A stretch of DNA of 64,000 nucleotides, taken from NCBI GenBank assembly GCA_019322375.1, contig JAHWIP010000003.1:6792-70791 (forward strand), read 5' to 3'. Shown here in pieces: positions 32,755 through 46,639 of the stretch; position 1 is the stretch's first letter; every line of letters begins with the position of its first letter. Under the pieces are notes generated by a model that was not told the origin of the DNA, ran no database searches, and saw only the letters and a list, made by a program, of their open reading frames with translations. This DNA is from Candidatus Woesearchaeota archaeon. Lineage in GTDB: Archaea > Nanobdellota > Nanobdellia > Woesearchaeales > SM23-78. The position numbers and the translations under genes are program-made.

Positions 32755-33042
32755 ATGGATAAAAAAGCCCAGGGTCTGAGTATGAATGTTATTATAATAG
32801 CAGCAATAGCTCTTTTAGTGCTTATCATTCTTGCTGTTCTTATCCTGAGAGCAGGTAAAGGAGTGACTGAAGGTACAGGGTGCAGAGGTGTTGGAGGAAT
32901 TTGTTATTCTAGCTGCACAGACTTGATTGAGGACAGAGGCGGAATGTGGGTTAAGAATCTTCCTAACAGCGGAAAGAATGGTGGCTGTTCAATAGACCAG
33001 GTTTGCTGTGTTGAACTATTAGAAACACCTGAGGATTACTAA
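32755..33042 (+). CDS. Type IV pilin-like protein with a six-Cys module (paralog A)
   Basis: GAGGTGA lies 6 nt upstream. MDKKAQG-LSMNVIIIAAIALLVLIILAVLIL. Module CRGVGGICYSSC...GGCSIDQVCCVE. Confidence 0.7.
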   Translation: MDKKAQGLSMNVIIIAAIALLVLIILAVLILRAGKGVTEGTGCRGVGGICYSSCTDLIEDRGGMWVKNLPNSGKNGGCSIDQVCCVELLETPEDY

Positions 33043-33044
33043 AA

Positions 33045-33335
33045 ATGAAGTTCTTGAATAATAAGAAAGGAGTCCAGCTAACCCTTTCTACAGTGGTTAT
33101 TGCAGTGCTTGTAATCATTGTGCTCATAGTGTTGATAGTGATTTTTACCCAGGGAACAGGCTTGTTCAACATAGGAATAACCAGCTGCGCTGATAGGGGA
33201 GGTAATTGTAATTACGAATCAGCAGATCAATGCGTTGATACTGGCGGCAGTGTTTACAGGTTTGGCAAGTGCACCGACGGGGTTTGCTGTATTCCTAAGG
33301 ACAAGCTTTCAGGGCAAGATGATAATCAAGACTAA
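33045..33335 (+). CDS. Type IV pilin-like protein with a six-Cys module (paralog B)
   Basis: MKFLNNKKG-VQLTLSTVVIAVLVIIVLIVLIV. Module SCADRGGNCNYESADQC...GKCTDGVCCIP. Confidence 0.7.
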   Translation: MKFLNNKKGVQLTLSTVVIAVLVIIVLIVLIVIFTQGTGLFNIGITSCADRGGNCNYESADQCVDTGGSVYRFGKCTDGVCCIPKDKLSGQDDNQD

Positions 33336-35157
33336 TAAGAAGAGGGCTGAGCTCACTATAACCCAAGTAGTACTCATGGTTCTGGGTGTAGTTGTTCTTA
33401 TTGTGCTGCTTTTTGTTTTGAAAATAATACCCACAGGAATTAGAAGTCTTACGAGCTGCTCTGACTGGGGGCAGTGCAGGCCAGGAAATGTTTGCGCACC
33501 AAATGAATACATAAAATTTGAAGCAAAGGATGACTGTCCTGCAAACCATGTGTGCTGCGTGCCTACAACCACAAGGCCAGGACCTCTTCAGGATTTTAAT
33601 GAAAAAGAGCTTGAATACCTGAGAAATGCTATTATCATAAAGCTTAACAATGACCCTACGCCTATAAGCGATGTAGCAAGCCTTAACTTAAAAGTTGATA
33701 CTAATTATACATTTCGTATAAGTATTAATGATAAGCTCACCAAGGATAAAAAAACAAGTGAAAAGCTTGGCCCTTGCGCTGTTTATGTGGTTGACACAAG
33801 AGAAGCAGGCAAGAAATATTTATTAACAAATAAAGGCTGGGACTTGATTCTTTCTGACAAAGAGATTGATTTGAGCGGCATAGAGCTGGCTGAGTGCACT
33901 GAAGAAAGCATTAGGTTAAAAAAATATTCTCCTTCACTAAATGATGTTTACAAGGACTTGGTGCTGTATGTTATTCTTTTGGATAAGGAAGTTGTTGATG
34001 CACTTGAAGTATTAGAAACACACGACCCTGGCTTTGTTAAACTAACTGCTCCTGGGTTTGGCAGTGGAATTAATCTCCCTGATAGGGGGATGGCAGCTTT
34101 TTATAATCTCACAACAATGTACAGCAATGTTGACCACTGGCTTGCTTACAGAGCCATAAGACTTAATGTTGAGCCAGTAGTCCAGATTAGTGGTATGAGC
34201 GGAATATGGGTTGACAAGGACCCAATAACCATATCCTGCCCTGATGTTACCTGCATCAGGTTTGGCTTAAAACTAGTGAAACTAAAAGACAATGATTATT
34301 TACAGTTGGTAGAAGAGTGCAAGAAGCCAGAAGGCTTTAAGTACACTCTTGATTATGTTGCAGGAACAACAACAAAAACAACAGGCATACCATTGAACAT
34401 TAATATTGGAGGTTTCAGGATTCCTCCTCAAAGACAAAAACTCCAGTACATTGTAAGCCAAAAACCAATAACTGTTGTTAATAATAAAGCAGATGTTTTG
34501 ATTGACAGGGCTACCATGCTAAAAACCTTTTACTCAGGAGACCACGAGTTATTAATCGAGGACACTACTTATCTTTGCGTAGAAGCCACCAAGGATGACG
34601 GCTCAAAGGTTCATGGGCTCTCAGAGCAGCCTATTAAAGTGGATGTTTTTCCGCCCATGGTTGACCCTGACAAGGATGTGCAGTTATTTTATCCAGACCC
34701 AGTGATCTCATCAGACATATCAACCCCTTATTATTACAGGAAGTACCCTAAGATTGTTGTTTCTGGATGCTATGATTATGGCCAGAGCGGATGCACTAAT
34801 TATGATTACTATATTCATTCAGGAGAATTTGTTAATCTAAGGTCTCTGACAGCAGAGTGGGAGATAGGAATTGCTTCTTTGATACTAACAGAGGGCTTGA
34901 ATGCCCTGCTCACTTATTTTGCAGAAAAAGATGCTGTCAACACTATATGCCCGTTTATAACCAGCCATTCTTACACAAGAAACACCCGCAATGAGATAAG
35001 AATCCCAAGGCAAGGGCAGGGCATAATATGCATCAGGGTTAGTGACAAAGTAGGCAACAAAGACATTATCTGGAAGGTGCTCTGGACACCTGAAGAGATG
35101 TTCAAGAAAATTATTGCAGAAGGAGTGGCAGAGGCAGAAGAAGCAGTGACTGGATAG
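33319..35157 (+). CDS. Large pilin-like protein: class III-type N-terminus, six-Cys module, ~530-aa unassigned ectodomain
   Basis: The track start 33235 lies inside the previous gene. ATG 33319 gives MIIKTNKKRA-ELTITQVVLMVLGVVVLIVLLFVL, then SCSDWGQCRPGNVC...DCPANHVCCVP. Confidence 0.65.
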   Translation: MIIKTNKKRAELTITQVVLMVLGVVVLIVLLFVLKIIPTGIRSLTSCSDWGQCRPGNVCAPNEYIKFEAKDDCPANHVCCVPTTTRPGPLQDFNEKELEYLRNAIIIKLNNDPTPISDVASLNLKVDTNYTFRISINDKLTKDKKTSEKLGPCAVYVVDTREAGKKYLLTNKGWDLILSDKEIDLSGIELAECTEESIRLKKYSPSLNDVYKDLVLYVILLDKEVVDALEVLETHDPGFVKLTAPGFGSGINLPDRGMAAFYNLTTMYSNVDHWLAYRAIRLNVEPVVQISGMSGIWVDKDPITISCPDVTCIRFGLKLVKLKDNDYLQLVEECKKPEGFKYTLDYVAGTTTKTTGIPLNINIGGFRIPPQRQKLQYIVSQKPITVVNNKADVLIDRATMLKTFYSGDHELLIEDTTYLCVEATKDDGSKVHGLSEQPIKVDVFPPMVDPDKDVQLFYPDPVISSDISTPYYYRKYPKIVVSGCYDYGQSGCTNYDYYIHSGEFVNLRSLTAEWEIGIASLILTEGLNALLTYFAEKDAVNTICPFITSHSYTRNTRNEIRIPRQGQGIICIRVSDKVGNKDIIWKVLWTPEEMFKKIIAEGVAEAEEAVTG

Positions 35158-35229
35158 CAAGTTAACTTAACATCTCCCTTCTTAATAAAACCGAAAGTTT
35201 ATTATAATTCTGTTATGATAGATTAGGAT

Positions 35230-35334
35230 ATGAAAAAAGGAGATTTGTCAACACTGGCAACTGTTATAATTATATTATTAACTCTTGTGTTTATAATCTT
35301 TATTTTCGGAAGAATCTATGGGTGGTGGGGTTGA
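35230..35334 (+). CDS. 34-aa helix-only micro-pilin-like ORF
   Basis: MKKG-DLSTLATVIIILLTLVFIIFIFGRIYGWWG. Ends 5 nt before the ATG of the next pilin-like gene. Below the track cutoff. Confidence 0.45.
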   Translation: MKKGDLSTLATVIIILLTLVFIIFIFGRIYGWWG

Positions 35335-35339
35335 AAAGG

Positions 35340-36299
35340 ATGAGCAGGATTAATAAAAAAGCAGGATTAAGCACATTACAAACAATTATCATTATCCTGC
35401 TCATATTTGTTGTTCTATTAATCTTTTACCAGGACTTAAGAGCAACTCTGTTAAAAAAATCTAACAGAGAGATATGCAGGGCTACTGCTCTTGCCCAGTC
35501 TGTTGCTGTGTGGGCGCCTGAAGGAGAGAATTTGGTTAGTCTTGAATGCAAGACTTACAAGGTTGTGTTTTTTGAAGACCATGTTGAGATTAATGATGAA
35601 ATAATTGAGGTGTATGACCCCAGGAAAAAAGATGTTGTTAAAAAGTTTAATGGCTTAACAGAGGACATTGTTAACTGGGTGATTGCAGAGGAGCTCAGAT
35701 GGTGCTGGTGGCAGTTTCTTGAAGGAAAAAAAAGCTTGTTAAACATGAAGAACTTTTTTGGCTCAGCAGAAAGAACCTGTTTTTTATGCACTGAAATAAC
35801 TTTTGATGAATCAGTTAAGACTGATGAATTCAAAAACTTCTTTAAGTACACCAAGGAAAAAACAATGCCTAATTCTGAAATGACTTATTACCAGTACTAT
35901 GCTGAGGAGCCCAGGAAGTGCATCTGGAGGTATGAAGAGATTATTGATGCAGATAATTGCTGGGAAGCCTATGCACAGGGCATCTCGCCTAATATAATAA
36001 CCAGCACTGTACAGCATTTTAAAGAGGCATTTAGCCATTGCTCAGGCATAATACCTGCTCTTTCAACTTACTGGTCTTCTGTAACGCATTATAGTGTTGT
36101 TAAAAACATAACCTTTGAGAAAGATAAAAAGTATGCTGTGACTTTTGTAAGGGAAGGAGCAACCTCAAGGCATCTTGAGCTAGAAAAATTAGTAAAAGGA
36201 GAGACTGATTGTTTTTTTGAAACTTATTTTTCATATGTAATCCCTTCTGATGAACTAGGAAAGCACTGCGGCCCTGTGAGAAGAGGCTCTATGAAATAA
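35340..36299 (+). CDS. Pilin-like Cys-containing protein (paralog of 36301-37197)
   Basis: ATG 35340 gives MSRINKKAG-LSTLQTIIIILLIFVVLLIF. Shared blocks with its neighbour: IAEELRWCWWQF/IADSLKTCWGTW, TCFLCTEITFDE/YCHVCSVIDFDD, KYAVTFV/PYAVMFV. Confidence 0.65.
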   Translation: MSRINKKAGLSTLQTIIIILLIFVVLLIFYQDLRATLLKKSNREICRATALAQSVAVWAPEGENLVSLECKTYKVVFFEDHVEINDEIIEVYDPRKKDVVKKFNGLTEDIVNWVIAEELRWCWWQFLEGKKSLLNMKNFFGSAERTCFLCTEITFDESVKTDEFKNFFKYTKEKTMPNSEMTYYQYYAEEPRKCIWRYEEIIDADNCWEAYAQGISPNIITSTVQHFKEAFSHCSGIIPALSTYWSSVTHYSVVKNITFEKDKKYAVTFVREGATSRHLELEKLVKGETDCFFETYFSYVIPSDELGKHCGPVRRGSMK

Positions 36300-36300
36300 A

Positions 36301-37197
36301 ATGAACAAGAAAGCCATTGTGTTTGACAAACTCATGACAGCTGTTCTGATAATCATTGTGCTGGCTGTTTTTATTTTTTTCCTGGTAAAGATAAAAATCC
36401 ATGCCTTAAAAATTGTTGAGGATTCTGAGTGCAAAGCAAGCATTATCAGCCATGCAACTCTTTTAAGGGTGACTGGAGAAGACACAACACCAGACATTCA
36501 CTGCCCTACCAAATATTATACTCTTCCAAAAGAAAGCAATGAAGAAATAAAGCATTATATTGCTGATTCATTAAAGACCTGCTGGGGAACCTGGGGCAAA
36601 GGAGAGCTTCAGTTATTTAACCAGCAAGGCTATTACTGCCATGTGTGCTCTGTGATTGATTTTGATGATAAAACAAAAAAAATACAAGGCCTGAACAATT
36701 ACCTGATTAATACGCCAACAGATAAAGATACCCCTCTCACATACATGGACTACCTCACAGGTTATGCATCTGAAAAAGCAGACCCTGCATTAATACAAGA
36801 GGTTCAGGAAAAAGGTTTTTCAGACACCATACACACTTCAAAGCCTTATGCAGTCATGTTTGTTTATGCCAAAGGAAAAACAGGTGTTAAAGCATTTCTT
36901 GATGGCATGGATGCTCTTGGCCTGGGAACAACAGGAGGAGGAATCACTACAGGGCTTGCACTGGGCTCAGCAGCAGGCATAGGGCTGGCAGCAGCAGGAG
37001 TGGCAAGTGGTGGAGCAGCAATTGTTATAGCAGGAGCAGTCACAGCTGCTGGCGGAGTGATAGGCTATATAACAGCAGATGATACTCACTGGATAGCCCT
37101 TACATTGTTCACAGAATACAATGCTGAAACCCTGAAAAGCATTGGGTGCGAGATAGCCCCTGCAAAGCAGGACAGAAAAACTGATGAAACTGGTTAA
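36301..37197 (+). CDS. Pilin-like protein with a Gly/Ala-rich hydrophobic C-terminal segment
   Basis: MNKKA-IVFDKLMTAVLIIIVLAVFIFFLV. C-terminal GLGTTGGGITTGLALGSAAGIGLAAAGVASGGAAIVIAGAVTAAGGVIGYI is glycine-zipper-like. Confidence 0.65.
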   Translation: MNKKAIVFDKLMTAVLIIIVLAVFIFFLVKIKIHALKIVEDSECKASIISHATLLRVTGEDTTPDIHCPTKYYTLPKESNEEIKHYIADSLKTCWGTWGKGELQLFNQQGYYCHVCSVIDFDDKTKKIQGLNNYLINTPTDKDTPLTYMDYLTGYASEKADPALIQEVQEKGFSDTIHTSKPYAVMFVYAKGKTGVKAFLDGMDALGLGTTGGGITTGLALGSAAGIGLAAAGVASGGAAIVIAGAVTAAGGVIGYITADDTHWIALTLFTEYNAETLKSIGCEIAPAKQDRKTDETG

Positions 37198-37280
37198 AAA
37201 ACTTAATTTGGTGATTTAGTTAAAGCGAAAGCATTAAAAAACACAAAAGCATAAAAAATCTTGAAACAAGAGGTTTTAAC

Positions 37281-37442
37281 ATGAGTTATGGCATGAACCG
37301 TATGAACAAGAAAGCCCAGGAAACAATGAGTCCTGAAGGCGGCACACTAAGAATAATATGGTTTGTGATTGTCTTATTAGTACTTATTATTATTGTTTAT
37401 TTTGTTGCAACAAATTTTAAACTAATCAAACTGCCATTTTGA
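37281..37442 (+). CDS. 53-aa helix-only micro-pilin-like ORF
   Basis: MSYGMNRMNKKA-QETMSPEGGTLRIIWFVIVLLVLIIIVYFVATNFKLIKLPF. Ends 9 nt before the amidase gene. Below the track cutoff. Confidence 0.4.
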   Translation: MSYGMNRMNKKAQETMSPEGGTLRIIWFVIVLLVLIIIVYFVATNFKLIKLPF

Positions 37443-37451: not shown

Positions 37452-38285
37452 ATGAAGCTGATAAATGCTATTGGTGCCATTGTTTTAGGATTGTTTGTAT
37501 TAATTATACTAATCCTGATATTTGTTCCAAACACATTCAAAATTGTTAATAATATCTTTCTTATTATTGGCCAACAATTAGGCTTTAACCCAGCAGTTCC
37601 TGGAGGTGAAGACTATGGCTTTGGAGGGCTTTATGGAAGCACACCATCAACTATTCCAACTGATGCTGAGCCAGAGCGTATTAAAAAAGTCAAAACAAAG
37701 CCAGGCATTCCTGTTGATGAAAAATATTTTGGAGAGCTCTACTCTTATTCCAGGGAAGGAGCACTTGTTGACACCATTGTACTGCACCACACAGGGGATA
37801 ATAAAGCTTCGCAAACATTCAATACTCTGAAAAAAAGAGAGCTTTCAGTGCATTATGTTGTTGACAAGGACGGCACAATATATTACTTGATAGATGAGAG
37901 CACAAAAGGCGCTCATTGCGGTTGCTGCCCGCCAAGCAACCCGACTTGTTGCAAAGCAGGAGAAAACTGTCCTGTTTGCCTGAATGAAGAATTAAGAGAA
38001 ATGAATGCCAAATCAATAGGCATTGAAATTGTTAACACAGGATATGCAGATGATTACTACACTAATGAGCAATATGTTTCAATAGATAAACTGATAAATG
38101 ATATTGCAAGCAGATGGACTGCTATTGCTGTTGATAATGAGCATGTGCTTGGGCATTACCAGATTACACTGGGTAAGTGGGATCCTTCACCTGTTTTTAA
38201 ATGGGCAAGAATACAAGGATTGTCAGGCCACTTAATGCTTGCAGACATAGGAAAAAAAGCACCCTCTGAATACGGCTATACATGA
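37452..38285 (+). CDS. Membrane-anchored N-acetylmuramoyl-L-alanine amidase (Amidase_2 / PGRP fold)
   Basis: N-terminus MKLINAIGAIVLGLFVLIILILIFV. Catalytic-domain pattern IVLHHTG ... SVHYVVDKDGTIY ... AKSIGIEIVNTG ... VLGHYQITLGKWDPSPVF (GH....K.DP..F). Cys-rich insert CGCCPPSNPTCCKAGENCPVC. Confidence 0.7.
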   Translation: MKLINAIGAIVLGLFVLIILILIFVPNTFKIVNNIFLIIGQQLGFNPAVPGGEDYGFGGLYGSTPSTIPTDAEPERIKKVKTKPGIPVDEKYFGELYSYSREGALVDTIVLHHTGDNKASQTFNTLKKRELSVHYVVDKDGTIYYLIDESTKGAHCGCCPPSNPTCCKAGENCPVCLNEELREMNAKSIGIEIVNTGYADDYYTNEQYVSIDKLINDIASRWTAIAVDNEHVLGHYQITLGKWDPSPVFKWARIQGLSGHLMLADIGKKAPSEYGYT

Positions 38286-38370: not shown

Positions 38371-39081
38371 ATGAAACCCTTGTTTTCAAAGAATAAAAAA
38401 AAGAAAGGCTTGTCAACCCTTGGAACCATTATAGGACTAATACTTTTACTAGCAGTCCTGGCAATCTTTCTTCCGGTTATTCTTCGCGCAGGCAAAACAA
38501 CTGATGAAGTCCCCAAAGACATAATGGACCCTGTCAAGGCATGCCATGGAAAAGAGAGTGGTGAGGAATGTTATCTTGGCGGAATAGCTGGTTTTTGCAG
38601 GGATTTCAGGTGTGTTATAGAGACTTCAGCAAAAAACATGAAAGAATCAATAACTATTTTCAAGACAACTTTCAAGGACAGCATTGAGAATTGCCAGAAA
38701 GATGTAGCCCAGTGCCCTGAGGCAACAAAGGCTCTGGACTTAATGATTGGTTATTTCACAGATGCAGGGCTTGTTGTTCATAGATTAGCCTCAGACAGAG
38801 CAGAGTTCAGGCTATACCAGGAAAAAAACTTTTTAGGTATTGGAGGGCATAAAGCCTCTTTTGTTTTTTACGGCGATACTTGTGTAATAGAGAAGAAAGG
38901 GGATAATGATGTTCCTACATCGGGCAAAAACTTTAAGCTTGGGATCAAAAAAGAAAGCAAAGGTTTTGTAGTATATGACCTTGAAAAAACTGCTGCTGAA
39001 CTAGGCACTTTTATATCTTTCAGGCATCAAACCCAGAATGATGCAACCACCCCGGTCTGTGTTTATTACACTACAGATTAG
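38371..39081 (+). CDS. Type IV pilin-like protein
   Basis: ATG 38371 gives MKPLFSKNKKKKG-LSTLGTIIGLILLLAVLAIFL, then ACHGKESGEECYLGGIAGFCRDFRCV. Confidence 0.65.
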   Translation: MKPLFSKNKKKKGLSTLGTIIGLILLLAVLAIFLPVILRAGKTTDEVPKDIMDPVKACHGKESGEECYLGGIAGFCRDFRCVIETSAKNMKESITIFKTTFKDSIENCQKDVAQCPEATKALDLMIGYFTDAGLVVHRLASDRAEFRLYQEKNFLGIGGHKASFVFYGDTCVIEKKGDNDVPTSGKNFKLGIKKESKGFVVYDLEKTAAELGTFISFRHQTQNDATTPVCVYYTTD

Positions 39082-39154: not shown

Positions 39155-39808
39155 TTGTTAACAAAATCAAGAAAAGGACTTTCCCTTTTAGGAATGCTTG
39201 GTGGTGTAATCATAGTAGTTGTACTGGTTATTGTTCTAATCAATATTTTCATTAACAGAGGAGCCAAGCCTCTGGAGAACATCACTGGAGAGATAATTAC
39301 CTGCGGAGGACTTGCAGGTGTTATTGGCGGGGGAGAAGGGGTTTGTATAAGCAAAAGCACTCTTTGCGACGGCCCAAAGCTTCCTAATCCTGAGTGCAAG
39401 GCTAGCAATCCTGACAAGCCTTATTGCTGTTTTAAACAAGCAGAGGGTGCTGAAGGCCCTCCTGGTTCTGGCCCGACGGCTTGTGTTAAGGATGTTGACC
39501 CCTGGGAACCTGTAATTGTTGAAGACGATTATGTTTGCGCTTCTAGTAAGGAGGCGTGCGAGCAGACTATGAATTTTGTTAATGTTCTGAATGAATGTGC
39601 TCAATTTAGTGAAGGTTGTGAATGCAAGGATGAAGTAGAAGGAATTGAGCACCCTTGTGAAGGCAATCTTAAATGGGCTCTTTTTGGCCTTGATAAATCT
39701 GAGCCTAAACATGAAGTTGTTATGAAATGCTATCCTGCTGTTAAGGAATGCGAGGATTCAAATGAATGTGAGCGTTGTGTTCCAAACCATTTTGAATGTG
39801 CAGAATAA
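39155..39808 (+). CDS. Type IV pilin-like Cys-rich protein with a six-Cys module
   Basis: TTG start with AAAGGTGA 6 nt upstream. LTKSRKG-LSLLGMLGGVIIVVVLVIVLINIF. Module TCGGLAG...GVCISKSTLC...PECKASNPDKPYCCFK. Confidence 0.6.
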   Translation: MLTKSRKGLSLLGMLGGVIIVVVLVIVLINIFINRGAKPLENITGEIITCGGLAGVIGGGEGVCISKSTLCDGPKLPNPECKASNPDKPYCCFKQAEGAEGPPGSGPTACVKDVDPWEPVIVEDDYVCASSKEACEQTMNFVNVLNECAQFSEGCECKDEVEGIEHPCEGNLKWALFGLDKSEPKHEVVMKCYPAVKECEDSNECERCVPNHFECAE

Positions 39809-39872: not shown

Positions 39873-41027
39873 ATGGCTTGGATGAATAAAAAAGGCGGTG
39901 AAAGACAGATTGGACTTAGCGAACTTACGCTTTATGTGTTTGTCATTCTGCTTATAGTTGTCTTATTTATTGTTAGCTATAGGTTTATCGGAGCTTTTCT
40001 CAGAGGAGGAGTTGATAAAGACACTGAGTCTAATTTTGTGTCACTGGCAGAGAACCTTGAGTTAATGATTGAGAAAGACGCAGGGTTTGAATACCAGACC
40101 ATGATTTTTTATATGAAAGAAAAGCATTTTGTGTTTGGCTTTACATCCAAGCAGGCTCTTTCCTCTTCTCCAGCAAAGCATTTTATGCCTGAGAAATGCA
40201 ATGAGCACTCATGCCTTTGCCTGTATAAAGAACCTGATGATGTAGCAGATGACAAGCCTGTCAAGTGCATATCTTTTGGGCACAAGGTTATTTTTCATGG
40301 CTATGACTTAAAAAAAGTGTCTGCTGCTCAGCTGGTTTATCCTGACCTAGGAGCAGAGCTGGGTGCGCGTGAGCAAGGAGAATCTTATTATTTATCTGAT
40401 TATCCTGAAACTATTTCTTTTTATATAGAAGGCTTGTTTATTGGCCCTTCACTAGACAATCCTCATGACCTTTACCTGGAAAAAATAGTTGCTAATAACA
40501 GGGTGCATGTTTTTGTGACTCCTGGCCTTAAGCAGGAAATGATAGAGACAAGGATTGAACTGTTATCTCCCTGCCCTTTTGATTCTGATGAAGAATGCAT
40601 GGGCAAGAGAAGAAACTCTGTTCTGGGCAGTAATGATTATTGTTTTTATGATGAGAGCCAGGCTAAGTGCTTGTTAAAAAAAGATGTGGATGCCTGTTCT
40701 TTCTCAGACAGAATTACACAGCCCTGTCTTTGCGGCTCTACATTTATAGACCCAGACACCAGGACAGAAGAAACCTATTGTTATCAAAAATCTGATAAAA
40801 GGATTTTTGTCCTTCCATTTGACTGCGATTCAGAGGAATTAAGAGAAAAAAAATGCCTTGCTTACTGCAGGGCAATCACTGATACAGAGGACTGCGACAC
40901 AAGAGAACAGGATTACTGTGATAAAGACCCTTGCGAGTTTGCTTCTAAAGAAAAGCCGTGCGAAGTGCGCCCATTAGGCAAAAAAACTTATTGTGCTTCT
41001 TACTCAAGGGATTACAGCATGGATTAA
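39873..41027 (+). CDS. Pilin-like, very Cys-rich ectoprotein
   Basis: MAWMNKKGGERQIG-LSELTLYVFVILLIVVLFIV. Many Cys in the C-terminal two thirds (e.g. DCDSEELREKKCLAYCRAITDTEDCDTREQDYCDKDPCEF). Confidence 0.65.
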   Translation: MAWMNKKGGERQIGLSELTLYVFVILLIVVLFIVSYRFIGAFLRGGVDKDTESNFVSLAENLELMIEKDAGFEYQTMIFYMKEKHFVFGFTSKQALSSSPAKHFMPEKCNEHSCLCLYKEPDDVADDKPVKCISFGHKVIFHGYDLKKVSAAQLVYPDLGAELGAREQGESYYLSDYPETISFYIEGLFIGPSLDNPHDLYLEKIVANNRVHVFVTPGLKQEMIETRIELLSPCPFDSDEECMGKRRNSVLGSNDYCFYDESQAKCLLKKDVDACSFSDRITQPCLCGSTFIDPDTRTEETYCYQKSDKRIFVLPFDCDSEELREKKCLAYCRAITDTEDCDTREQDYCDKDPCEFASKEKPCEVRPLGKKTYCASYSRDYSMD

Positions 41028-41113: not shown

Positions 41114-41596
41114 ATGAGTTTTTATGATTTTAATAACAAGAAAGCCAGGAGCATGATTGCAACTTCTTTTTATGTATTATTTGGCTTGATGCTGGGAGCC
41201 TTTTTTGTGATAGCTGTTCTTGGAAGAGTTAAGGATGCTGTTGGTGATTCTGCTTATCATAAAAAGTTTTATTCCAGGGACCTGGCCTTGCTTGTTGATG
41301 CCTTGCATGCCAGCAATGGAAAGTTTGTTGTTGATTATGATGTTAATCTTCCAGACAACATGCTCCTGGACTTTGGTCTTGAGCCTGGAGCAGTCATCTT
41401 AACAGACCGCTCTGACACACTCATGGATAACAGGCATAAAACTGCTTTTTTGTTTGGGCATAATGATTATGTAAAAATAATTCCTGTCACAATTGACAAG
41501 AACATGCTTAAATTGTTAGTGGTGGCTGATAACAACACCATTACATTTGAAGAGAAAGGGATGGATGATTTAAGTACAAATGATAAAGAGGAGTGA
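41114..41596 (+). CDS. Pilin-like protein
   Basis: MSFYDFNNKKA-RSMIATSFYVLFGLMLGAFFVIAVLG. Confidence 0.55.
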   Translation: MSFYDFNNKKARSMIATSFYVLFGLMLGAFFVIAVLGRVKDAVGDSAYHKKFYSRDLALLVDALHASNGKFVVDYDVNLPDNMLLDFGLEPGAVILTDRSDTLMDNRHKTAFLFGHNDYVKIIPVTIDKNMLKLLVVADNNTITFEEKGMDDLSTNDKEE

Positions 41597-41629: not shown

Positions 41630-42169
41630 ATGAGAATAATAAAAAAGAGGCTGAGCCTGAATAACAAAAAGGGGTTGGGAACTGAGGAGTGGCTTGAACT
41701 TCTGCCTTACATAGTGTTAACAGTGGTTGTAATGGTGGCTATTTTTGCCCTGATAAACCTTTTTGTTAATATTTCTGTTGATGTTAAGCCTGTTCAAAGG
41801 GAAGTTCTTTTCTACAGGCTGATGTATGCTCCTAACTCAATTATGTATATGGATAATCTTACTGGCAGGGTTCACCCTGGTGTTATTAGCTGGGATAATT
41901 TTACCAACCAGACCCTTGACAAATCTATTGCTTATGATTATGAAAGGCATATATCTGCAAAATTGATATTATATAACCTGGAAAAAGAGCCAATCAAAAC
42001 AGCTTATCTTAATGGGCTGTGGTTTAACCGCTTAGAGCCTTTGGCCAGGAGCAGGATTAAGGGTGCAGGCAGTGCAGAGCTCTACACCAAGAAAATCCCT
42101 GTTGTTTACAGGAGAAATGATGTGAACAGGGCAGGCTATCTTAAAGTTGAGATTATCATTCCAAACTAA
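41630..42169 (+). CDS. Pilin-like protein
   Basis: MRIIKKRLSLNNKKG-LGTEEWLELLPYIVLTVVVMVAIFALINLF. Confidence 0.55.
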   Translation: MRIIKKRLSLNNKKGLGTEEWLELLPYIVLTVVVMVAIFALINLFVNISVDVKPVQREVLFYRLMYAPNSIMYMDNLTGRVHPGVISWDNFTNQTLDKSIAYDYERHISAKLILYNLEKEPIKTAYLNGLWFNRLEPLARSRIKGAGSAELYTKKIPVVYRRNDVNRAGYLKVEIIIPN

Positions 42170-42184: not shown

Positions 42185-42853
42185 ATGAGCAGTTTGATTA
42201 ATTCAAGAAAAGGCATGAAAACCATTGTGACAATATTATCAGTTGTCTTGTTAGTATTCATATTCATAATATTTATTTTTCTTTTCAGGCTTGGCGCCAG
42301 GAACAAGGCAGAAAGCATAGAATCAGATTTTTCCTCTGTAAGAACAGAGTTTTTGCTTAAAACCTTTTTAAGAACACCAGCTGTTATTAGTGATGATTAC
42401 CCTGTTGAAGACTTGTTCCCTGGCATAGGAGAAGGCATTACCAATGCAGACCTGGTATCATGGACATGTAGTAAGGATAAAGACAGGAATTACAAGACCT
42501 TGAAAAACTCAATAAACACTTTTTTTGATGAGGCATATGAAGATGACTGGGAAGCATGGATAATCTATTCTAATCCTAAAGTAAAAAAGAAGGGCTTTGG
42601 GCACAAGAGTTATCTTGAAGGGATTGAGAAAAGCATAAACCGCTTGCTAACAGCAGGACAGCTGGCTTTGCTAGCAGCCAAATCATCAGACCCAGCCAGC
42701 AGGGGATTAATCTTCAAGCTTTTTATAACTCCTTATCGTGAAGCAGGCTTTGGCTCCCAGGTGGTTCCTTGCCCAGACGGAGAACTAGCCCAGATAATGC
42801 TTTACTCCCACACAGCATTTATTGAAATAAAACACCTGAAAGGCTTAACATAA
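42185..42853 (+). CDS. Pilin-like protein
   Basis: MSSLINSRKG-MKTIVTILSVVLLVFIFIIFIFLF. Confidence 0.55.
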   Translation: MSSLINSRKGMKTIVTILSVVLLVFIFIIFIFLFRLGARNKAESIESDFSSVRTEFLLKTFLRTPAVISDDYPVEDLFPGIGEGITNADLVSWTCSKDKDRNYKTLKNSINTFFDEAYEDDWEAWIIYSNPKVKKKGFGHKSYLEGIEKSINRLLTAGQLALLAAKSSDPASRGLIFKLFITPYREAGFGSQVVPCPDGELAQIMLYSHTAFIEIKHLKGLT

Positions 42854-42865
42854 GATAAAATAAAA

Positions 42866-45800
42866 ATGGATAAAGTAAAACTGAGATTAAAAAACAGAAA
42901 AGCACAGGTTTACCCGCTTTTTGTAGTGGTCTTTACAATAGTGGCCTTGACAACAGCCCTTATTGGCTTGAGCAATGCAAAAGAGGTTACTGATTTATCT
43001 GGCAGGGAAATGCTTATCGGCACCAAGCAATCAGCTGTTTTTGCATCTCTTCAAGACGCAGATGCTGTTAGTTTATTCATAGAGCAGGCAGCAGAATTTG
43101 CAGGCCAGCAAGCCCTGGATAAAATAAGAAAATCATGCTTTTTTGGAGTTGATGAGGAACAAGAAGTTGATGAGTGGGAGTCTCCATGCGGCAAGTTTGT
43201 TTATCCTCTTTGGAGCACTAATGAAAATCTTTGCCTTCCTGATTGTGAAACAGCTTTTGTCAATGCCTTTAACAAGGATTTTTTAAGCCGAACAAACAAG
43301 TATTATGAGTTCACAAACATAGAGCTGCCTATTTCTTATAACATGAGCCTGGAAATACATGACAATCATTTTTTTGTTCATGGAACCTCTGACACAGAAC
43401 TAAGGATTAATGTGGTTGATATTCAGAGCAGGATTAAGTCTCCCCTGGCAATAGCCCAGACTTATGAGGAAGGCAGGCTTATCTGGCCTGTTGATTACTC
43501 TGACCACACAATCACCTCTTGCTTTGGTGAAAGAGATGTTGTTGGGGGGAGCAAATACCATCCTGCTGTTGATATCCGGGCTCCAAAAGGAACACCAGTG
43601 CTGGCAGCTGCTTTAGGAAAAGTGATTCTTACTGACCCTTGCTGGGGAAGAATTGTTATTAATCATGGCTCTGGCTTAAGCACAGAGTATCTTCACTTGG
43701 AAAAAATTGATGTTAAGGTTAATGATGATGTGGTGCAGGGACAAAGAATAGGAACTTCTGGCAGCAATGGCTGTGACACAAGAGAGTTTGTTCCGCACCT
43801 GCATTTTGGGGTTATATATCAAGGTGTTCAGTCACCCATGCATTATAAAGGGCAGGAAATAGTTTTGAGCAACAACCATATCCAGCCCATGTGCTTGATT
43901 GAAAAAGGGTATGCTGCTAAGCCAGAAAGCAACTGCAACCAGCTTGTGAACACAGACTTAGACAAGATTTGTGAATTGTATAATCTGCCAGAAGAATTTT
44001 TTGAATCATCAGAATCATCAAAGCCATCAGAGCCATCAGAACCAGACCAAGACACTTCTTCTGAAGAAAGTGCTGATGCAGAGAATGCTGGTGCAGAAAG
44101 TGTTAATGCAGAAAGCACTGAGCTGGATTATTCTCTGGCACAGGCTCCTGGCAGCTATGCTTTTAAACCATCTTTTACCTTGAGGGTTAACAAGAAAATA
44201 GAAAACCCTATTGAGCCAGTAACAGAGTGGTTTGAGAACACCTGGAACGAGTGCGAGGATGACCCTTGGAAATGTTTAAGAGAAAAAATGAGTGAGTTTA
44301 ATGAGCAGGACTATGATTACAAGCTCATGTTTGCTGACAGGTGCGAGGAAGGCTATCACTTGTTCTATGACATACTGGAGTTTTTTGAGGACTGCTTTTC
44401 AAACCAGAAGTATGGGTGCTCATGCGAGTTTAATTTATCAGATGCTTTTTCAATAACTGACTTGCGAATAGTTTTTGACACACAAGCAAACACAGCCTCT
44501 CTTTTTTCCAAGCAGGGAGATAAGCCTGGTGATGAATATGAATTAATTGATTCATACCAGTTCTATTATGGAAGCATAACCAAGCCAGCCCCTGCTTCTC
44601 CTTATAGGTATTATGTGTATCAGCTTGATTATGATGATTATGGGGAGCTGGAAAATGCAGAGCTTATGCAAATGAAGTCATTGCTTGATGTATTTGATGT
44701 TGTGCCTTTTTTTGATTACAAAGAACTAAGACTGGCAAAGCCAGGAGAGGCTGAGCAAGGATATTTTGTGAACACAGAAACAATTCAGTGCAAGTACAAG
44801 AAGAACAAGTTCAGGCTGTGTGCAAAGCCAGCACAGGAAAGAGAAGACTTGTTCCCTATAAGGTTTGCTTTTCACTTAAAAGACAAGCCTCCTGAGCCTG
44901 TTAAAAAAGGAGATGTGGAAATTATAGAGGTGGAGGAGAGTTCTGAGTCAGATGTTGACAAGGTAATGCAGGCAGCAGGCTTTCTAGGAACCATATTCCC
45001 TCCTCTAGGCTACTTGTTCACAGCAATTAATATTCTCAGTGTGTTGGAAGACTTTAAACCAAGAAAGTTCGAGGTAATAGTTGATGTTCCTCTTGACAAG
45101 GATGGCAAACCCCTGGATGTTGCTGGCTATGAAGTTTATTGCAGTGATTACCTGACAAACATCCTGCCAGTGGATGTTTTGGATAAATATAATCCAAGTC
45201 ATTTTGTTGTGATGGCTAATGATGAGATGAATAAAAAAGTAAGCCAGCTAGACCAGTATGTTAAGAAGAACCCTTACACAGACTTTCTGAATCTTGAGAG
45301 CTGTGATGTGCCTGTGAGCAAGTTCACAGGAGAAACCATTCTTGTGCCTGGAATCAAAGGGGTTGTTAAGGACGGTAAAATGGTTTTCAACCTTCATAAA
45401 TGCGGGGACTTGGCAATAATTATAGATAAACTAATAAGAAAAGACTACTGTGTATCACTAATACCTGTTGACAAGAATGGCAACAAGATAATGGAGCATG
45501 CTGTGAGCAACTGCGCGCAAACCAATTCACTGCTTGACCTGGTTATTAGTGAGATGATAGAGGAACAGCTAGGAGAATTTATTCCTGCAAGCCTTATACC
45601 TGATAATTTAAAGCCTTATATCAAGCTGCCTGACACAAGCGATATTGTTAATGCAGTAACAGGGGAAGGCAGTTTTGACATGATAGACATTGTTAATCTT
45701 GACAAGCTGGACGCAGACATAAAAAATTATCTTGAGGAATTCGTGGTTGGAACTATTAATGAAGACATAATAGGCACTTCTGTTGTTAATTCTATTGATG

Positions 45801-46639
45801 ACTTAAAGCTCTGGGAAAAACAAACAGTGCTTAACACCCTGTCAAACCAGATAAAAAATGATGATGCAAAAACCTTGTTTGATGCCTTTGTAACAGGAGA
45901 AGGTGTTGCTGAGTCTGCCAAGCGCATGGCTTATGAAAAAGGAGTAGGATATATAGACCAGACAAAAACACCTGAGATACTTAAGGAGATAGCCAAAGGA
46001 GAAGACCCTAAAAGCCTTGCATACCAGGAACTGGTAAAAGCAGCTGAGAAAGAGCTCAGCACTGACGAGAAAAAACAGGCTCTGCTGGAGATAGCCAGGA
46101 GCAGCAGTGGAAGAGAGGTAAAAGATAAGATAATAGAAAAAGCCCTTGAAAAAGGATGCGGCGAGTCATATGGAATAAGTGCAGAGCAGGCAATCAACTG
46201 CCTTGACAATGAAGAGGTAGAAAATATTTATCACAAAGTTCTGACAGACTACAGCACACCAGACAAGGTAAAACAGTTTTTGCTTGACAAGGCAATTGAC
46301 AAGTTTGATGAAAAAACACCAGACGTGCTAAAAGAGATTGTTCTGAAAAGAGACTTTAAAGGAGCAGCAAAGGACATGCTTGAGAAAGAGCTTGACAAGC
46401 TTCCAGACGCTGTTAAGAAAGAGTTTATTACTGATATACTTGAAGGCAGGCTTCCAGATGTTGAGTACTTGCAGCAGGAACTAGTGAAAATGATACCAGC
46501 AGTAAACAATGAATATGTGAATGCCCTGCTAAAAGACGGCAATGTTAAAAACCTGATAGAATCAACCCTTAAATCAGAGATAGAAAAACAACTAGGCTCA
46601 TTCTTCTCAGATGAATGCGTGGCAATTAATAAGGATTGA
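42866..46639 (+). CDS. Giant (1257-aa) pilin-like protein with an M23 (LytM-type) metallopeptidase domain
   Basis: KNRKA-QVYPLFVVVFTIVALTTALIGL N-terminus. M23 motifs YHPAVDIRAP (HxxxD) and PHLHFGV (HxH) at about nt 43478-43841. Acidic S/E linker, an internal hydrophobic segment at about nt 44972-45046, and a K/E-rich repetitive helical C-terminus. Confidence 0.7.
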   Translation: MDKVKLRLKNRKAQVYPLFVVVFTIVALTTALIGLSNAKEVTDLSGREMLIGTKQSAVFASLQDADAVSLFIEQAAEFAGQQALDKIRKSCFFGVDEEQEVDEWESPCGKFVYPLWSTNENLCLPDCETAFVNAFNKDFLSRTNKYYEFTNIELPISYNMSLEIHDNHFFVHGTSDTELRINVVDIQSRIKSPLAIAQTYEEGRLIWPVDYSDHTITSCFGERDVVGGSKYHPAVDIRAPKGTPVLAAALGKVILTDPCWGRIVINHGSGLSTEYLHLEKIDVKVNDDVVQGQRIGTSGSNGCDTREFVPHLHFGVIYQGVQSPMHYKGQEIVLSNNHIQPMCLIEKGYAAKPESNCNQLVNTDLDKICELYNLPEEFFESSESSKPSEPSEPDQDTSSEESADAENAGAESVNAESTELDYSLAQAPGSYAFKPSFTLRVNKKIENPIEPVTEWFENTWNECEDDPWKCLREKMSEFNEQDYDYKLMFADRCEEGYHLFYDILEFFEDCFSNQKYGCSCEFNLSDAFSITDLRIVFDTQANTASLFSKQGDKPGDEYELIDSYQFYYGSITKPAPASPYRYYVYQLDYDDYGELENAELMQMKSLLDVFDVVPFFDYKELRLAKPGEAEQGYFVNTETIQCKYKKNKFRLCAKPAQEREDLFPIRFAFHLKDKPPEPVKKGDVEIIEVEESSESDVDKVMQAAGFLGTIFPPLGYLFTAINILSVLEDFKPRKFEVIVDVPLDKDGKPLDVAGYEVYCSDYLTNILPVDVLDKYNPSHFVVMANDEMNKKVSQLDQYVKKNPYTDFLNLESCDVPVSKFTGETILVPGIKGVVKDGKMVFNLHKCGDLAIIIDKLIRKDYCVSLIPVDKNGNKIMEHAVSNCAQTNSLLDLVISEMIEEQLGEFIPASLIPDNLKPYIKLPDTSDIVNAVTGEGSFDMIDIVNLDKLDADIKNYLEEFVVGTINEDIIGTSVVNSIDDLKLWEKQTVLNTLSNQIKNDDAKTLFDAFVTGEGVAESAKRMAYEKGVGYIDQTKTPEILKEIAKGEDPKSLAYQELVKAAEKELSTDEKKQALLEIARSSSGREVKDKIIEKALEKGCGESYGISAEQAINCLDNEEVENIYHKVLTDYSTPDKVKQFLLDKAIDKFDEKTPDVLKEIVLKRDFKGAAKDMLEKELDKLPDAVKKEFITDILEGRLPDVEYLQQELVKMIPAVNNEYVNALLKDGNVKNLIESTLKSEIEKQLGSFFSDECVAINKD

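What the first reader, a model, noticed from the sequence alone, without database searches (positions are those of the whole stretch)
32755..46639. Fifteen-gene single-strand array of class-III-signal (type IV pilin-like) proteins that includes murein hydrolases, in an archaeal genome
There are fifteen consecutive plus-strand ORFs, 12 in the track plus 3 shorter ones found by eye, with tiny or overlapping gaps. Fourteen of the fifteen begin with a short basic leader, mostly ending K/R-G or K/R-A, followed by ~20 uninterrupted hydrophobic residues. Examples: KKAQG-LSMNVIIIAAIAL, NKKG-VQLTLSTVVIAVL, KKRA-ELTITQVVLMVL, KKG-DLSTLATVIIIL, KKAG-LSTLQTIIIIL, KKKKG-LSTLGTIIGLIL, SRKG-LSLLGMLGGVII, SRKG-MKTIVTILSVVL, NRKA-QVYPLFVVVFTIV. 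This is the archaeal prepilin (class III signal) pattern. The exception is the amidase gene 37452, whose N-terminus MKLINAIGAIVLGLFVL is a plain hydrophobic anchor with no K/R-G or K/R-A site. Apart from two enzymes, I cannot assign any ectodomain to a known family, and many are Cys-rich. The two enzymes are an Amidase_2 domain (37452-38285) and an M23 domain (in 42866-46639), both of which cut bacterial peptidoglycan. The surrounding genes (histone, RadA, Hjc, EndA, NAC, aMBF1, RNase P RNA type A) are archaeal, and archaea do not make murein. Working model (inference): a multi-subunit pilus-like surface apparatus that attaches to, and locally digests the wall of, a bacterial partner or prey. 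A locus of this size and composition is not something I can match to a described archaeal pilus system (Aap, Ups, Bas, Epd or archaellum).
Basis: partly seen in the sequence, partly recalled or inferred. Interest (0 to 1): 0.9.

Follow-up and report, generated by a model that had tools for sequence, protein, structure and literature searches.

The report
Woesearchaeal prepilin-like operon carrying murein hydrolases
A small symbiotic-type archaeon (Woesearchaeota) carries a conserved 15-gene operon of membrane-anchored, pilin-signal-bearing surface proteins that includes interchangeable enzymes for cutting bacterial cell wall. It is a concrete candidate for the apparatus these archaea use on bacterial partners or prey.

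Summary
Window 32755-46639 holds 15 collinear + strand genes. Fourteen start with a basic leader, a K/R-G/A site and a hydrophobic helix. P8 is an Amidase_2 enzyme and P15 an M23 enzyme, both well above Pfam cut-offs and with catalytic residues intact. The flanking genes are archaeal (Candidatus Woesearchaeota MAG).

New findings:
- The array is conserved in the same order in the 13 related loci I compared (29-67% identity), next to the RPA gene wherever the downstream flank was annotated.
- The K/R-G/A site is kept in 60 of 65 orthologues, and in none of the P8 family.
- Two enzyme "slots" swap murein-hydrolase domains (M23, Amidase_2, SLT, GH73-like), so murein cleavage is the selected function.
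- A type IV filament ATPase and a platform protein lie about 31 kb upstream on the same contig.

Not shown:
- Pilin identity: there are no pilin-family HMM hits, and the P13 model does not match solved pilins.
- A prepilin peptidase.
- Any filament.

Large extracellular murein hydrolases in Woese-/Pacearchaeota and archaeal peptidoglycan hydrolases are already published. The class-III-signal operon and the swapping enzyme slots were not found in the searchable literature. Verdict: a new variant of known kinds.

The parts
32755..33042 (+). P1, 95 aa. Leader MDKKA|QG, TM helix, then a 6-Cys head (C-x6-C-x3-C-x23-C-x5-CC).
   Evidence: Paralogue of P2 (E 1e-8). Orthologues in L002, L007, L010, L011 and others.
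33045..33335 (+). P2, 96 aa. Leader ..NKKG|VQ, TM helix, 6-Cys head.
   Evidence: The module profile gives only weak PDB hits, mostly beta-defensin-fold proteins.
33319..35157 (+). P3, 612 aa. Leader ..KKRA|E, TM helix, the same Cys module, then about 500 aa of unknown fold.
35230..35334 (+). P4, 34 aa. MKKG|DLSTLATVIIIL...; little more than leader plus helix.
35340..36299 (+). P5, 319 aa. Leader ..NKKA|G, TM helix, Cys/Trp-motif ectodomain of unknown fold.
   Evidence: Paralogue of P6 (E 2e-9).
36301..37197 (+). P6, 298 aa. Leader MNKKA, TM helix, P5-like ectodomain, plus a conserved 45-50 aa Gly/Ala-rich hydrophobic segment near the C-terminus.
37281..37442 (+). P7, 53 aa. ..NKKA|QE.., a polar spacer, then a TM helix.
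   Evidence: site kept in 5 of 5 orthologues.
37452..38285 (+). P8 ('slot 8'), 277 aa. Plain N-terminal anchor without a K/R-G/A site. Amidase_2 domain at aa 106-247 (nt 37767-38192) with a Cys-rich insert.
   Evidence: Pfam 89 bits. Aligns to AmpDh2 (4bj4, E 3e-11) with LHHT, IEI, GHY and K-WDP residues kept. The same slot carries a GH73-like domain in L002, L004, L007, L024 and L026.
38371..39081 (+). P9, 236 aa. ..KKKKG|LSTLGT, TM helix, 8-Cys ectodomain.
39155..39808 (+). P10, 217 aa (TTG start). ..SRKG|LSLLG, TM helix, the Cys module, then a further Cys-rich region (18 Cys in all).
   Evidence: The L004 orthologue has a PPC domain hit.
39873..41027 (+). P11, 384 aa. ..NKKG|GE.., spacer, TM helix, 20-Cys ectodomain.
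41114..41596 (+). P12, 160 aa. ..NKKA|R, TM helix, Cys-free ectodomain. Present in all loci, including the most distant one (L014).
41630..42169 (+). P13, 179 aa. ..NKKG|LGTEEWLE.., with Glu conserved at +4/+5. TM helix 18-45, then an alpha/beta head.
42185..42853 (+). P14, 222 aa. ..SRKG|MK, TM helix, ectodomain of unknown fold.
   Evidence: The site is kept in 7 of 7 orthologues.
42866..46639 (+). P15, 1257 aa. Leader ..NRKA|QVYPLF (strictly conserved), TM helix, a conserved 4-Cys N-domain, M23 domain aa 231-321 (nt 43556-43828), a variable insert site near aa 385-428, beta-rich domains, and an alpha-helical repeat tail of about 290 aa.
   Evidence: The insert site carries SLT or Amidase_2 in orthologues.
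26..1891 (+). Candidate assembly machinery (not adjacent): a 621-aa polytopic protein related to T2SSF-domain (FlaJ/TadC/PilC-type) platform proteins. A 576-aa T2SSE ATPase gene ends 35 nt upstream, just outside the window.
   Evidence: distant relative P0095 hits T2SSF at 36 bits; T2SSE 62.9 bits; L017 overlaps window 1-2017 with 0 mismatches.

Best explanation
This is a vertically inherited Woesearchaeal operon for a cell-surface complex that cuts bacterial murein.

Shown:
- There are 15 co-oriented genes. All products have one N-terminal membrane helix and are predicted to have an extracellular body.
- Two positions in the operon are enzyme slots. Slot 8 (P8) carries either an Amidase_2 or a GH73-like glucosaminidase domain. 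The giant last protein (P15) carries M23, with an optional SLT or Amidase_2 insert, on a constant scaffold of about 830 aa.
- The catalytic residues are intact.

Inferred:
- Fourteen of the proteins, including the giant hydrolase, are made as class III (prepilin-type) precursors. A PibD/EppA-like peptidase would cut them after the conserved K/R-G/A.
- Their N-terminal helices would then be assembled at the membrane, probably by the type IV filament ATPase and platform encoded 31 kb upstream. The product would be a short pseudopilus or a bindosome-like array rather than a long pilus.
- This array would present the hydrolase modules, Cys-rich heads and unknown ectodomains beyond the archaeal surface.
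- Because the archaeon has no murein of its own, the target would be the sacculus of a bacterium it attaches to. The amidase, endopeptidase and glycan-cleaving activities would open the wall locally, for contact or feeding.
For: - The gene array and the N-terminal pattern are confirmed.
- The K/R-G/A site is kept in 60 of 65 orthologues of 14 families and in 0 of 5 of the P8 family.
- P15 orthologues strictly keep [KR][KR]AQxYP.
- P13 orthologues keep Glu at +4/+5 after KKG.
- Order and content are conserved in 13 further loci at 29-67% identity. The RPA gene follows the array in the four loci whose downstream genes were annotated; RadA and TRAM genes lie a few kb further on in three of them, as in the window.
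- Both enzymes exceed Pfam cut-offs and keep catalytic residues.
- The slot contents vary among M23, Amidase_2, SLT and GH73-like domains, and the amidase never occurs twice in one locus.
- A T2SSE ATPase and a T2SSF-related platform protein lie on the same contig.
- No phage structural families match, and IMG/VR holds no relatives.
- The literature supports bacterial-wall targeting by Woese-/Pacearchaeota (PMC8204110, PMC9723730) and killing of bacteria by archaeal peptidoglycan hydrolases (PMC12352652).
Against: - No pilin or class-III family HMM matches any member.
- The P13 model does not resemble solved pilins.
- In P6, P7, P11 and P13 the putative cleavage site is separated from the hydrophobic stretch by 7-14 residues.
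- The ATPase and platform are 31 kb away and have their own adjacent array of helix-anchored proteins.
- No GxGD-type polytopic peptidase occurs in the window or fetched flanks.
- No ectodomain shows a recognisable murein-binding domain.
- There is no experimental evidence for processing, assembly, activity or a bacterial host.
Confidence: 0.55

Rival explanations
1. The proteins are ordinary signal-anchored (type II) membrane proteins. The K/R-G/A motif is a lineage-specific membrane-insertion or oligomerisation motif that is not cleaved. The products form a membrane-bound surface enzyme complex with no involvement of type IV filament machinery.
For: - No pilin-family hits.
- The P13 head is not pilin-like.
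- There is no adjacent ATPase, platform or peptidase.
- Four members have a spacer between the site and the helix.
- P8 works in the same operon with a plain anchor.
Against: - Conservation of G/A after K/R in 60 of 65 orthologues, against 0 of 5 in the P8 family, is hard to explain by the positive-inside rule alone.
- Tiny members (P4, 34 aa; P7, 53 aa) consist of little more than leader plus helix.
- Glu at +4/+5 is conserved in P13.
- Type IV filament machinery is present in the genome.
Confidence: 0.25
2. The structure is as in the best explanation, but the purpose differs. The enzymes scavenge murein from dead bacteria (necromass) or kill competitors at a distance, as sources of amino acids and amino sugars. 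They do not serve attachment to, or penetration of, a specific bacterial host.
For: - Necromass and peptidoglycan use has been proposed for Pacearchaeota (PMC11537232).
- Archaeal peptidoglycan hydrolases can act as antibacterial weapons (PMC12352652).
- No recognisable adhesin or murein-binding domain was found in the locus.
Against: - All the enzymes are membrane-anchored, not secreted. They can therefore act only on material touching the cell.
- Twelve conserved non-enzymatic partners are a large investment for simple scavenging.
- No muropeptide transporter or catabolic gene lies in or beside the operon in any annotated locus.
Confidence: 0.2
3. The hydrolases are autolysins that remodel a murein-like or pseudomurein-like wall made by the archaeon itself.
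For: The enzymes are membrane-anchored, like many bacterial autolysins. The operon sits in a conserved chromosomal position.
Against: - No Mur-ligase or wall-synthesis genes are in the window.
- Known pseudomurein-cleaving enzymes are of other families (my background knowledge).
- Published surveys find that archaeal peptidoglycan hydrolases are nearly absent from pseudomurein producers (PMC12352652).
- Free swapping among four bond specificities is unlike housekeeping autolysins.
Confidence: 0.03
4. The array is an integrated virus, a tailocin or another mobile element, and its lysins (like phage tape-measure or virion-associated hydrolases) came along with it.
For: The M23, SLT and amidase domains have their nearest PHROG and some PDB matches in phage lysins, tape-measure and ejection proteins.
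Against: - Only the catalytic domains match. No capsid, tail, portal, integrase or terminase families are present.
- Gene order is the same in all 13 related loci, and the RPA gene follows the array wherever the flank was annotated.
- IMG/VR holds no relatives.
- GC content is close to that of the rest of the window.
Confidence: 0.02

Closest known systems
[quoted passage not shown] 2021, PMC8204110; AR20, Castelle 2015; Vigneron et al. 2022, PMC9723730)
   Same: The lineage is the same, and both are very large extracellular proteins with a bacterial murein-hydrolase domain. P15 orthologues P0006, P0008, P0009 and P0010, and those in L011, L021, L024 and L025, do carry an SLT (GH23) domain. 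Both are interpreted as acting on bacterial walls.
   Different: - The window's P15 has M23 only and no SLT.
- Those papers do not mention the pilin or class III signal, the 15-gene operon or the interchangeable enzyme slots. In the three papers I searched, the terms 'pili' and 'pilin' were absent.
- I could not test whether P15 belongs to fam00969 itself.
Sulfolobus bindosome (Bas system)
   Same: Large functional, non-pilin ectodomains carry class III signal peptides and are thought to be assembled at the surface by a type IV filament ATPase and platform (background in PMC4858521). This is the best analogy for how the locus may work.
   Different: - The bindosome displays sugar-binding proteins, not enzymes.
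- Its basEF ATPase and platform genes sit next to its pilin-like genes.
- It belongs to a different phylum, and there is no sequence relationship.
- Membership is not claimed.
Bacterial modular type IV pilins (e.g. Streptococcus sanguinis PilB/PilC; PMC8179133)
   Same: A class III signal plus an N-terminal helix is fused to a bulky functional module that the filament presents. Many architectures exist.
   Different: - In those proteins a canonical pilin module (IPR012902) is demonstrable. Here no pilin module is detectable.
- P15 has 1257 aa and carries hydrolase modules.
- The setting is archaeal.
Archaeal peptidoglycan hydrolases that kill bacteria (Strock et al. 2025, PMC12352652)
   Same: Archaeal M23-domain and other peptidoglycan hydrolases are acquired from bacteria and aimed at bacterial walls. 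That paper reports them as prominent in Nanoarchaeota.
   Different: - Those are modular secreted enzymes with a murein-binding domain (e.g. M23 plus PG_binding_1), and their distribution is patchy.
- Here there is no binding domain. The proteins are membrane-anchored, and they sit in a conserved multi-gene operon.
Machine-associated murein hydrolases: phage tape-measure and virion-associated lysins; FlgJ (my own recollection)
   Same: Combinations of M23, SLT, GH73 and amidase domains are attached to a structural scaffold so that a machine can cross a sacculus locally. Phage PDB and PHROG matches to the P15 domains include Gp16, tape-measure and internal proteins.
   Different: Those machines cross the wall of the phage's host or of the bacterium that makes them. 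Here the producer has no murein. No homology exists outside the catalytic domains.

Membership tests
Archaeal type IV pilin-like / class III signal peptide proteins | Short basic leader ending in K/R-G/A, followed by about 20 hydrophobic residues | tested here: met
   Met in 14 of 15 proteins and in 60 of 65 orthologues. In P6, P7, P11 and P13 the site is 7-14 residues from the helix. The test is by pattern only; no FlaFind or PilFind program was available.
Archaeal type IV pilin-like / class III signal peptide proteins | Match to a curated pilin, archaellin or class III HMM (Pfam Pilin_N, Class_IIIsignal, Arch_flagellin; NCBIfam equivalents) | tested here: not met
   No such hit at E up to 0.1-1 in Pfam or NCBIfam for any member.
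Archaeal type IV pilin-like / class III signal peptide proteins | Pilin 'lollipop' fold: a long N-terminal helix packed on a beta-sheet head, resembling solved pilins | tested here: inconclusive
Archaeal type IV pilin-like / class III signal peptide proteins | Cleavage by a prepilin peptidase (PibD/FlaK/EppA) encoded in the genome | not testable with these tools
   No GxGD polytopic protein occurs in the 64-kb window or the fetched flanks. The rest of the genome could not be reached.
Type IV filament system (ATPase + platform + pilins) | T2SSE-family ATPase and T2SSF-family platform protein in the genome | tested here: met
   The ATPase scores 62.9 bits for PF00437 on L017, which is contiguous with the window. 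Window gene 26-1891 has relatives that hit PF00482, one above the cut-off at 36.1 bits and two just below it. These genes are not adjacent to the array; they lie 31 kb upstream.
Peptidase_M23 (lysostaphin/LytM-type murein endopeptidase) | Domain HMM above the curated cut-off, and the HxxxD ... H ... HxH zinc/catalytic residues | tested here: met
   76.5 bits against a cut-off of 28.7. H232, D236, H277, H311 and H313 are invariant in 10 orthologues. PDB profile hits to M23 enzymes reach E 8e-20.
Amidase_2 (N-acetylmuramoyl-L-alanine amidase, AmpD/T7-lysozyme type) | Domain HMM above the cut-off, with zinc ligands and catalytic residues aligned to a solved amidase | tested here: met
   89 bits against a cut-off of 26. 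The alignment to AmpDh2 (4bj4) keeps the His of LHHT, the Glu of IEI, the His of GHY and the Lys/Asp of K-WDP.
Woese-/Pacearchaeotal large lytic-transglycosylase proteins (fam00969) | SLT/GH23 domain in a very large extracellular protein | tested here: not met
   The window's P15 has no SLT domain. Its orthologues in other loci do have one, at the insert site. The window protein is therefore a relative of such proteins rather than one of them by this criterion.
Sulfolobus bindosome | basEF ATPase and platform genes adjacent to the pilin-like genes; substrates are sugar-binding proteins | tested here: not met
   No ATPase or platform lies within 10 kb of the array in the annotated loci (window, L002-L005). 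No solute-binding domains were found.

The most novel reading that the evidence does not exclude
The operon builds a type-IV-filament-derived 'murein drill'. In this reading, a short pseudopilus is polymerised from the tiny and Cys-capped subunits (P1, P2, P4, P7) and tipped or decorated by the giant modular hydrolase P15 and its partners. The archaeon would push it into the wall of a living bacterium to open a port for cross-domain parasitism. That would be the first dedicated archaeal machine for attacking bacteria. The Cys-rich heads would be prokaryotic beta-defensin-like modules that recognise envelope components.
Probability: 0.2. Interest if true: 0.9.

Novelty: new variant of a known kind. 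Interest (0 to 1): 0.64.

Why it matters
Who the hosts of Woesearchaeota and Pacearchaeota are, and how DPANN archaea physically engage them, are open questions. Published work notes isolated 'large murein hydrolase' genes in these lineages.

This locus adds three things:
- The hydrolase is the last gene of a conserved 15-gene operon of prepilin-like surface proteins.
- The enzyme modules are exchanged between lineages while the scaffold stays fixed.
- A type IV filament motor is available in the genome.

That yields a defined and testable parts list for a cross-domain (archaeon-on-bacterium) interaction apparatus. The parts could be used as antigens for localisation, as catalytic domains for sacculus assays that might reveal host wall chemotype, and as N-termini for processing assays. 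It would also extend the 'modular pilin' and bindosome idea to enzymes.

Tried and rejected
- Pfam, NCBIfam and PHROGs scans of all members and of 51 orthologues found no family other than the two enzymes and one PPC hit.
- PDB sequence and profile searches for P3, P5, P6, P11 and the P5/P6 profile found nothing.
- The AF2 model of the P15 C-terminal 833 aa had only moderate confidence (pLDDT 66.8, pTM 0.41). Foldseek found no match below E 0.05.
- Fold searches with the P13 model returned no pilins. The afdb50 library was unavailable.
- Attempts to walk off the window ends failed because the NCBI contig is not indexed. Only a Logan contig at the 5' end could be used.
- The hydrophobic stretch at P15 aa 705-725 was considered as a second TM helix. 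I rejected this because it is not conserved and carries charges in orthologues.
- The viral or mobile-element origin was rejected.
- A motif search for a GxGD polytopic peptidase found nothing in any held sequence.
- Array 2 (3019-9744) was tested for relatedness to the finding's array and showed none.

Full report
**1. What is there**

Window 32755-46639 carries 15 consecutive + strand ORFs, which I call P1 to P15. They are separated by -17 to +86 nt. I refined two starts. P3 most plausibly starts at ATG 33319, which gives MIIKTNKKRAELT.... P10 starts at TTG 39155, which gives MLTKSRKGLS....

Fourteen of the 15 have a short basic leader containing [KR][GA], followed by an uncharged hydrophobic stretch. 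P8 has a plain hydrophobic N-terminus. Among the other N-terminally anchored proteins of the same window the motif occurs in 5 of 16. Three of those five lie in a second array next to type IV filament machinery (Fisher p = 6e-4). In P6, P7, P11 and P13 the site lies 7-14 residues upstream of the helix, which is atypical for class III signals.

P8 scores 89 bits for Amidase_2 (cut-off 26). P15 scores 76.5 bits for Peptidase_M23 at aa 231-321 (cut-off 28.7). NCBIfam and PDB searches agree.

The catalytic residues are intact:
- In P15, H232 and D236 (HxxxD), H277, and H311 and H313 (HxH) are invariant in ten orthologues.
- P8 aligns to the periplasmic amidase AmpDh2 and keeps the His, Glu, His and Lys/Asp positions.

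Nothing else in the array matches Pfam, NCBIfam, PHROGs or PDB sequences.

**2. Whose genome**

The flanks are archaeal:
- RNase P RNA directly upstream (32269-32573, 121 bits);
- EndA, histone, Hjc, NAC, an RPA-like protein and RadA.

P15 is identical to an 'M23 family metallopeptidase [Candidatus Woesearchaeota archaeon]' on a 71.4-kb NCBI contig. GC content across the array (0.38-0.41) is close to that of the rest of the window. The locus is therefore not bacterial contamination.

**3. Conservation**

P15 has orthologues of 1254-1489 aa at 39-56% identity in Woesearchaeota/Nanoarchaeota MAGs. Fetching their neighbourhoods and mapping P1-P15 onto them shows the array in the same order in 13 further loci, at 29-67% identity per protein. 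Where contigs are short, only part of the array is visible. The RPA gene follows the array in all four loci whose downstream genes were annotated. RadA and TRAM genes lie a few kb further on in three of them, as in the window. This is a vertically inherited chromosomal operon.

PHROGs matches only the two catalytic domains, and IMG/VR holds no relative of P15. I therefore reject a viral or mobile origin.

**4. The N-terminal sites are under selection**

Across the orthologues of the 14 families, 60 of 65 keep a [KR][GA] site in the 15 residues before the helix. The P8 family has none (0 of 5, plus the window copy). Two family-specific patterns stand out:
- P15 orthologues strictly keep [KR][KR]-A-Q-x-Y-P.
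- P13 orthologues keep KKG-x2-G[AT]EEWLEQIPYI, which places a near-invariant Glu at +4/+5 after the putative cut. From my own background knowledge, this recalls Glu5 of bacterial type IV pilins.

P4 (34 aa) and P7 (53 aa) are little more than leader plus helix. Such a clean split between the 14 families and the P8 family within one operon is not what the positive-inside rule alone predicts. It is the best evidence that the site is functional. A prepilin-peptidase cleavage site is the obvious reading, though not a proven one.

**5. The enzymes are swappable modules**

Pfam scans and local HMMs built from the domains give the following table.

| Locus | Slot 8 | Giant protein |
|---|---|---|
| window | Amidase_2 | M23 |
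| L011, L021, L025 | Amidase_2 | M23+SLT |
| L002, L007 | GH73-like | M23 |
| L004, L026 | GH73-like | M23+Amidase_2 |
| L024 | GH73-like | M23+SLT |
| L010, L020, L018, L009 | not detected or not covered | M23 |
| L014 | not covered | Amidase_2 only |

The GH73-like call rests on four observations:
- sub-threshold Pfam Glucosaminidase hits in two orthologues (21.6 and 19.8 bits);
- a homologue at E 7.5e-42 that carries PF01832;
- an ALAFFxQESxFG motif, which I recall as resembling the GH73 catalytic-Glu motif;
- no support from a PDB profile search.

In P15 the insert sits at one fixed site, between M23 and a constant C-terminal scaffold of about 830 aa. Amidase_2 never occurs twice in one locus. 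A fixed scaffold with enzymes for different bonds of murein (peptide cross-link, MurNAc-L-Ala, and glycan strand cut two ways) means that murein degradation is the selected function.

**6. Is it a pilus?**

A type IV filament motor exists in this genome. Window gene 26-1891 (621 aa, polytopic) has 361 relatives. Three of the ten distant relatives I scanned hit Pfam T2SSF, one above the cut-off and two just below it (36.1, 23.1 and 22.6 bits against 25.2).

A Logan contig from the same sample (L017) overlaps window 1-2017 with no mismatch. It places a 576-aa T2SSE ATPase (62.9 bits) 35 nt upstream of that gene. However, the motor has its own adjacent array of nine helix-anchored proteins (3019-9744), which is unrelated in sequence to P1-P15. 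It also lies 31 kb from the finding.

No prepilin peptidase candidate (a polytopic GxGD protein) occurs in the window or in any fetched flank. The rest of the genome was unreachable.

Structure gave no positive support:
- The P15 C-terminal model (pLDDT 66.8) shows beta-rich domains followed by an alpha-helical repeat tail of about 290 aa (pLDDT 80-88). It has no significant structural neighbour.

'Class-III-signal proteins' is thus supported by pattern and conservation. 'Pilins' and 'filament' are not shown.

**7. Most likely mechanism**

Shown:
- a conserved operon of single-pass proteins whose bodies are predicted to face outward;
- catalytically competent murein hydrolases in two slots;
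- a type IV filament ATPase and platform in the genome.

Inferred:
- Fourteen proteins are processed at K/R-G/A.
- Their N-terminal helices are assembled into a short pseudopilus or a bindosome-like surface array.
- That array holds P15 and its partners beyond the archaeal envelope.
- On contact with a bacterium, the amidase, endopeptidase and glycan-cleaving modules open the sacculus locally.

I put about 0.55 on this overall. Broken down, I put about 0.85 on 'acts on bacterial murein', about 0.65 on 'class III processed' and about 0.4 on 'polymerises'.

Rivals:
- plain signal-anchored complex without type IV filament involvement (0.25);
- the same structure used for necromass scavenging or competition rather than host attachment (0.2);
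- autolysins for a wall of the archaeon's own (0.03);
- viral or mobile origin (0.02).

**8. Relation to what is known**

- Castelle et al. [quoted passage not shown]
- Vigneron et al. 2022 (PMC9723730) proposed 'vampiristic' Woesearchaeota.
- Strock et al. 2025 (PMC12352652) showed that archaeal peptidoglycan hydrolases kill bacteria and are prominent in Nanoarchaeota.
- Class III signals on non-pilin functional proteins are known from the Sulfolobus bindosome (PMC4858521).
- Modular pilins with grafted functional modules are widespread in bacteria (PMC8179133).

None of the papers I searched links these things. In the three DPANN papers I searched, the terms 'pili' and 'pilin' were absent. 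Combined searches for pilin or class III signal with murein or peptidoglycan and DPANN, Woesearchaeota or Nanoarchaeota returned nothing relevant. A 2026 preprint that classifies archaeal type IV filament systems does not mention hydrolases or peptidoglycan.

I therefore rate this a new variant of known kinds. The enzymes and the idea of bacterial-wall attack are known. The conserved class-III-signal operon with exchangeable enzyme slots appears undescribed, within the limits of the searchable library.

**9. Side observations**

- The 6-Cys head shared by P1, P2, the N-terminus of P3, and P10 has the pattern C-x5-14-C-x3-7-C-x9-23-C-x4-9-CC. Its profile gives only weak PDB hits (E 0.03-6). Eight of the 19 are beta-defensin-fold proteins: tick carboxypeptidase inhibitor, Defensin-BvL, gallinacin-11, big defensin, beta-defensin 104, crotamine and helianthamide. 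Most of the others match only the TM helix. This is suggestive but not significant.
- P5 and P6 are paralogues. The P6 family has a conserved Gly/Ala-rich hydrophobic segment of 45-50 aa near its C-terminus.
- A bacterial-type sigma-70 gene lies just downstream of the array (48092-50200). This is already reported for Woesearchaeota (PMC8204110).

Noticed in passing
window 26-1891 (+), plus L017:1347-3077 (just upstream of the window start): A type IV filament motor. The 621-aa polytopic protein has distant relatives that hit Pfam T2SSF. It is preceded by a 576-aa T2SSE ATPase on a contig that overlaps the window with 0 mismatches.
   Followed up: yes
window 3019-9744 (+): A second array of nine genes whose products begin with a hydrophobic helix. 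Three have a K/R-G/A site. Three have no leader at all (METVEII.., MQVAEIM.., MELPIRIM..). None has a family hit, and none is related in sequence to P1-P15. These are probably the motor's own pilin set.
   Followed up: partly
window 48092-50200 (-): A 702-aa bacterial-type sigma-70 factor (regions 1.2, 2, 3 and 4 all above Pfam cut-offs) in an archaeal genome. It sits next to a 741-aa HATPase_c_3 protein (50267-52492). Sigma-70 in Woesearchaeota is already reported (PMC8204110).
   Followed up: partly
window 32755-33618 and 39155-39430 (heads of P1, P2, P3 N-terminus, P10): A shared 6-Cys module ending in CC. Its profile's weak PDB hits (E 0.03-6) are mostly beta-defensin-fold proteins (TCI, gallinacin-11, big defensin, hBD104, crotamine, helianthamide). 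If real, this would be an unexpected fold in archaea.
   Followed up: partly
window 36301-37197 (P6), aa ~205-255: A Gly/Ala-rich hydrophobic segment of 45-50 aa (glycine-zipper-like), conserved in all six orthologues. It is followed by a conserved tail (EYxAExLKxIGCEI). It could be a second membrane hairpin or a membrane-inserting element.
   Followed up: partly
window 58923-61412 (-): An 829-aa Peptidase_C25-like protein with Cys-rich MopE-like motifs and the N-terminus MKKTINPNRA|MIGLVLMVAL. This is another possible class III substrate outside the array. The 131-aa protein at 53740-54135 (-) (MAEKDKG|NYLFALIAM..) is similar.
   Followed up: no
window 31196-32199 (-): A HEPN / nucleotidyltransferase gene pair (toxin-antitoxin-like), next to the RNase P RNA gene (32269-32573, -) that lies immediately upstream of the array.
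   Followed up: no
window 54265-57738 (+): A 1157-aa ORF with no Pfam match. Its start and function are unclear.
   Followed up: no
window 1-64000: ARAGORN found no tRNA gene in 64 kb.
   Followed up: no
L014:1915-5889 and L004/L026 giant proteins: In the most distant locus the giant protein has lost M23 and carries only Amidase_2. Across 14 loci, the amidase is never present in both slots at once.
   Followed up: yes
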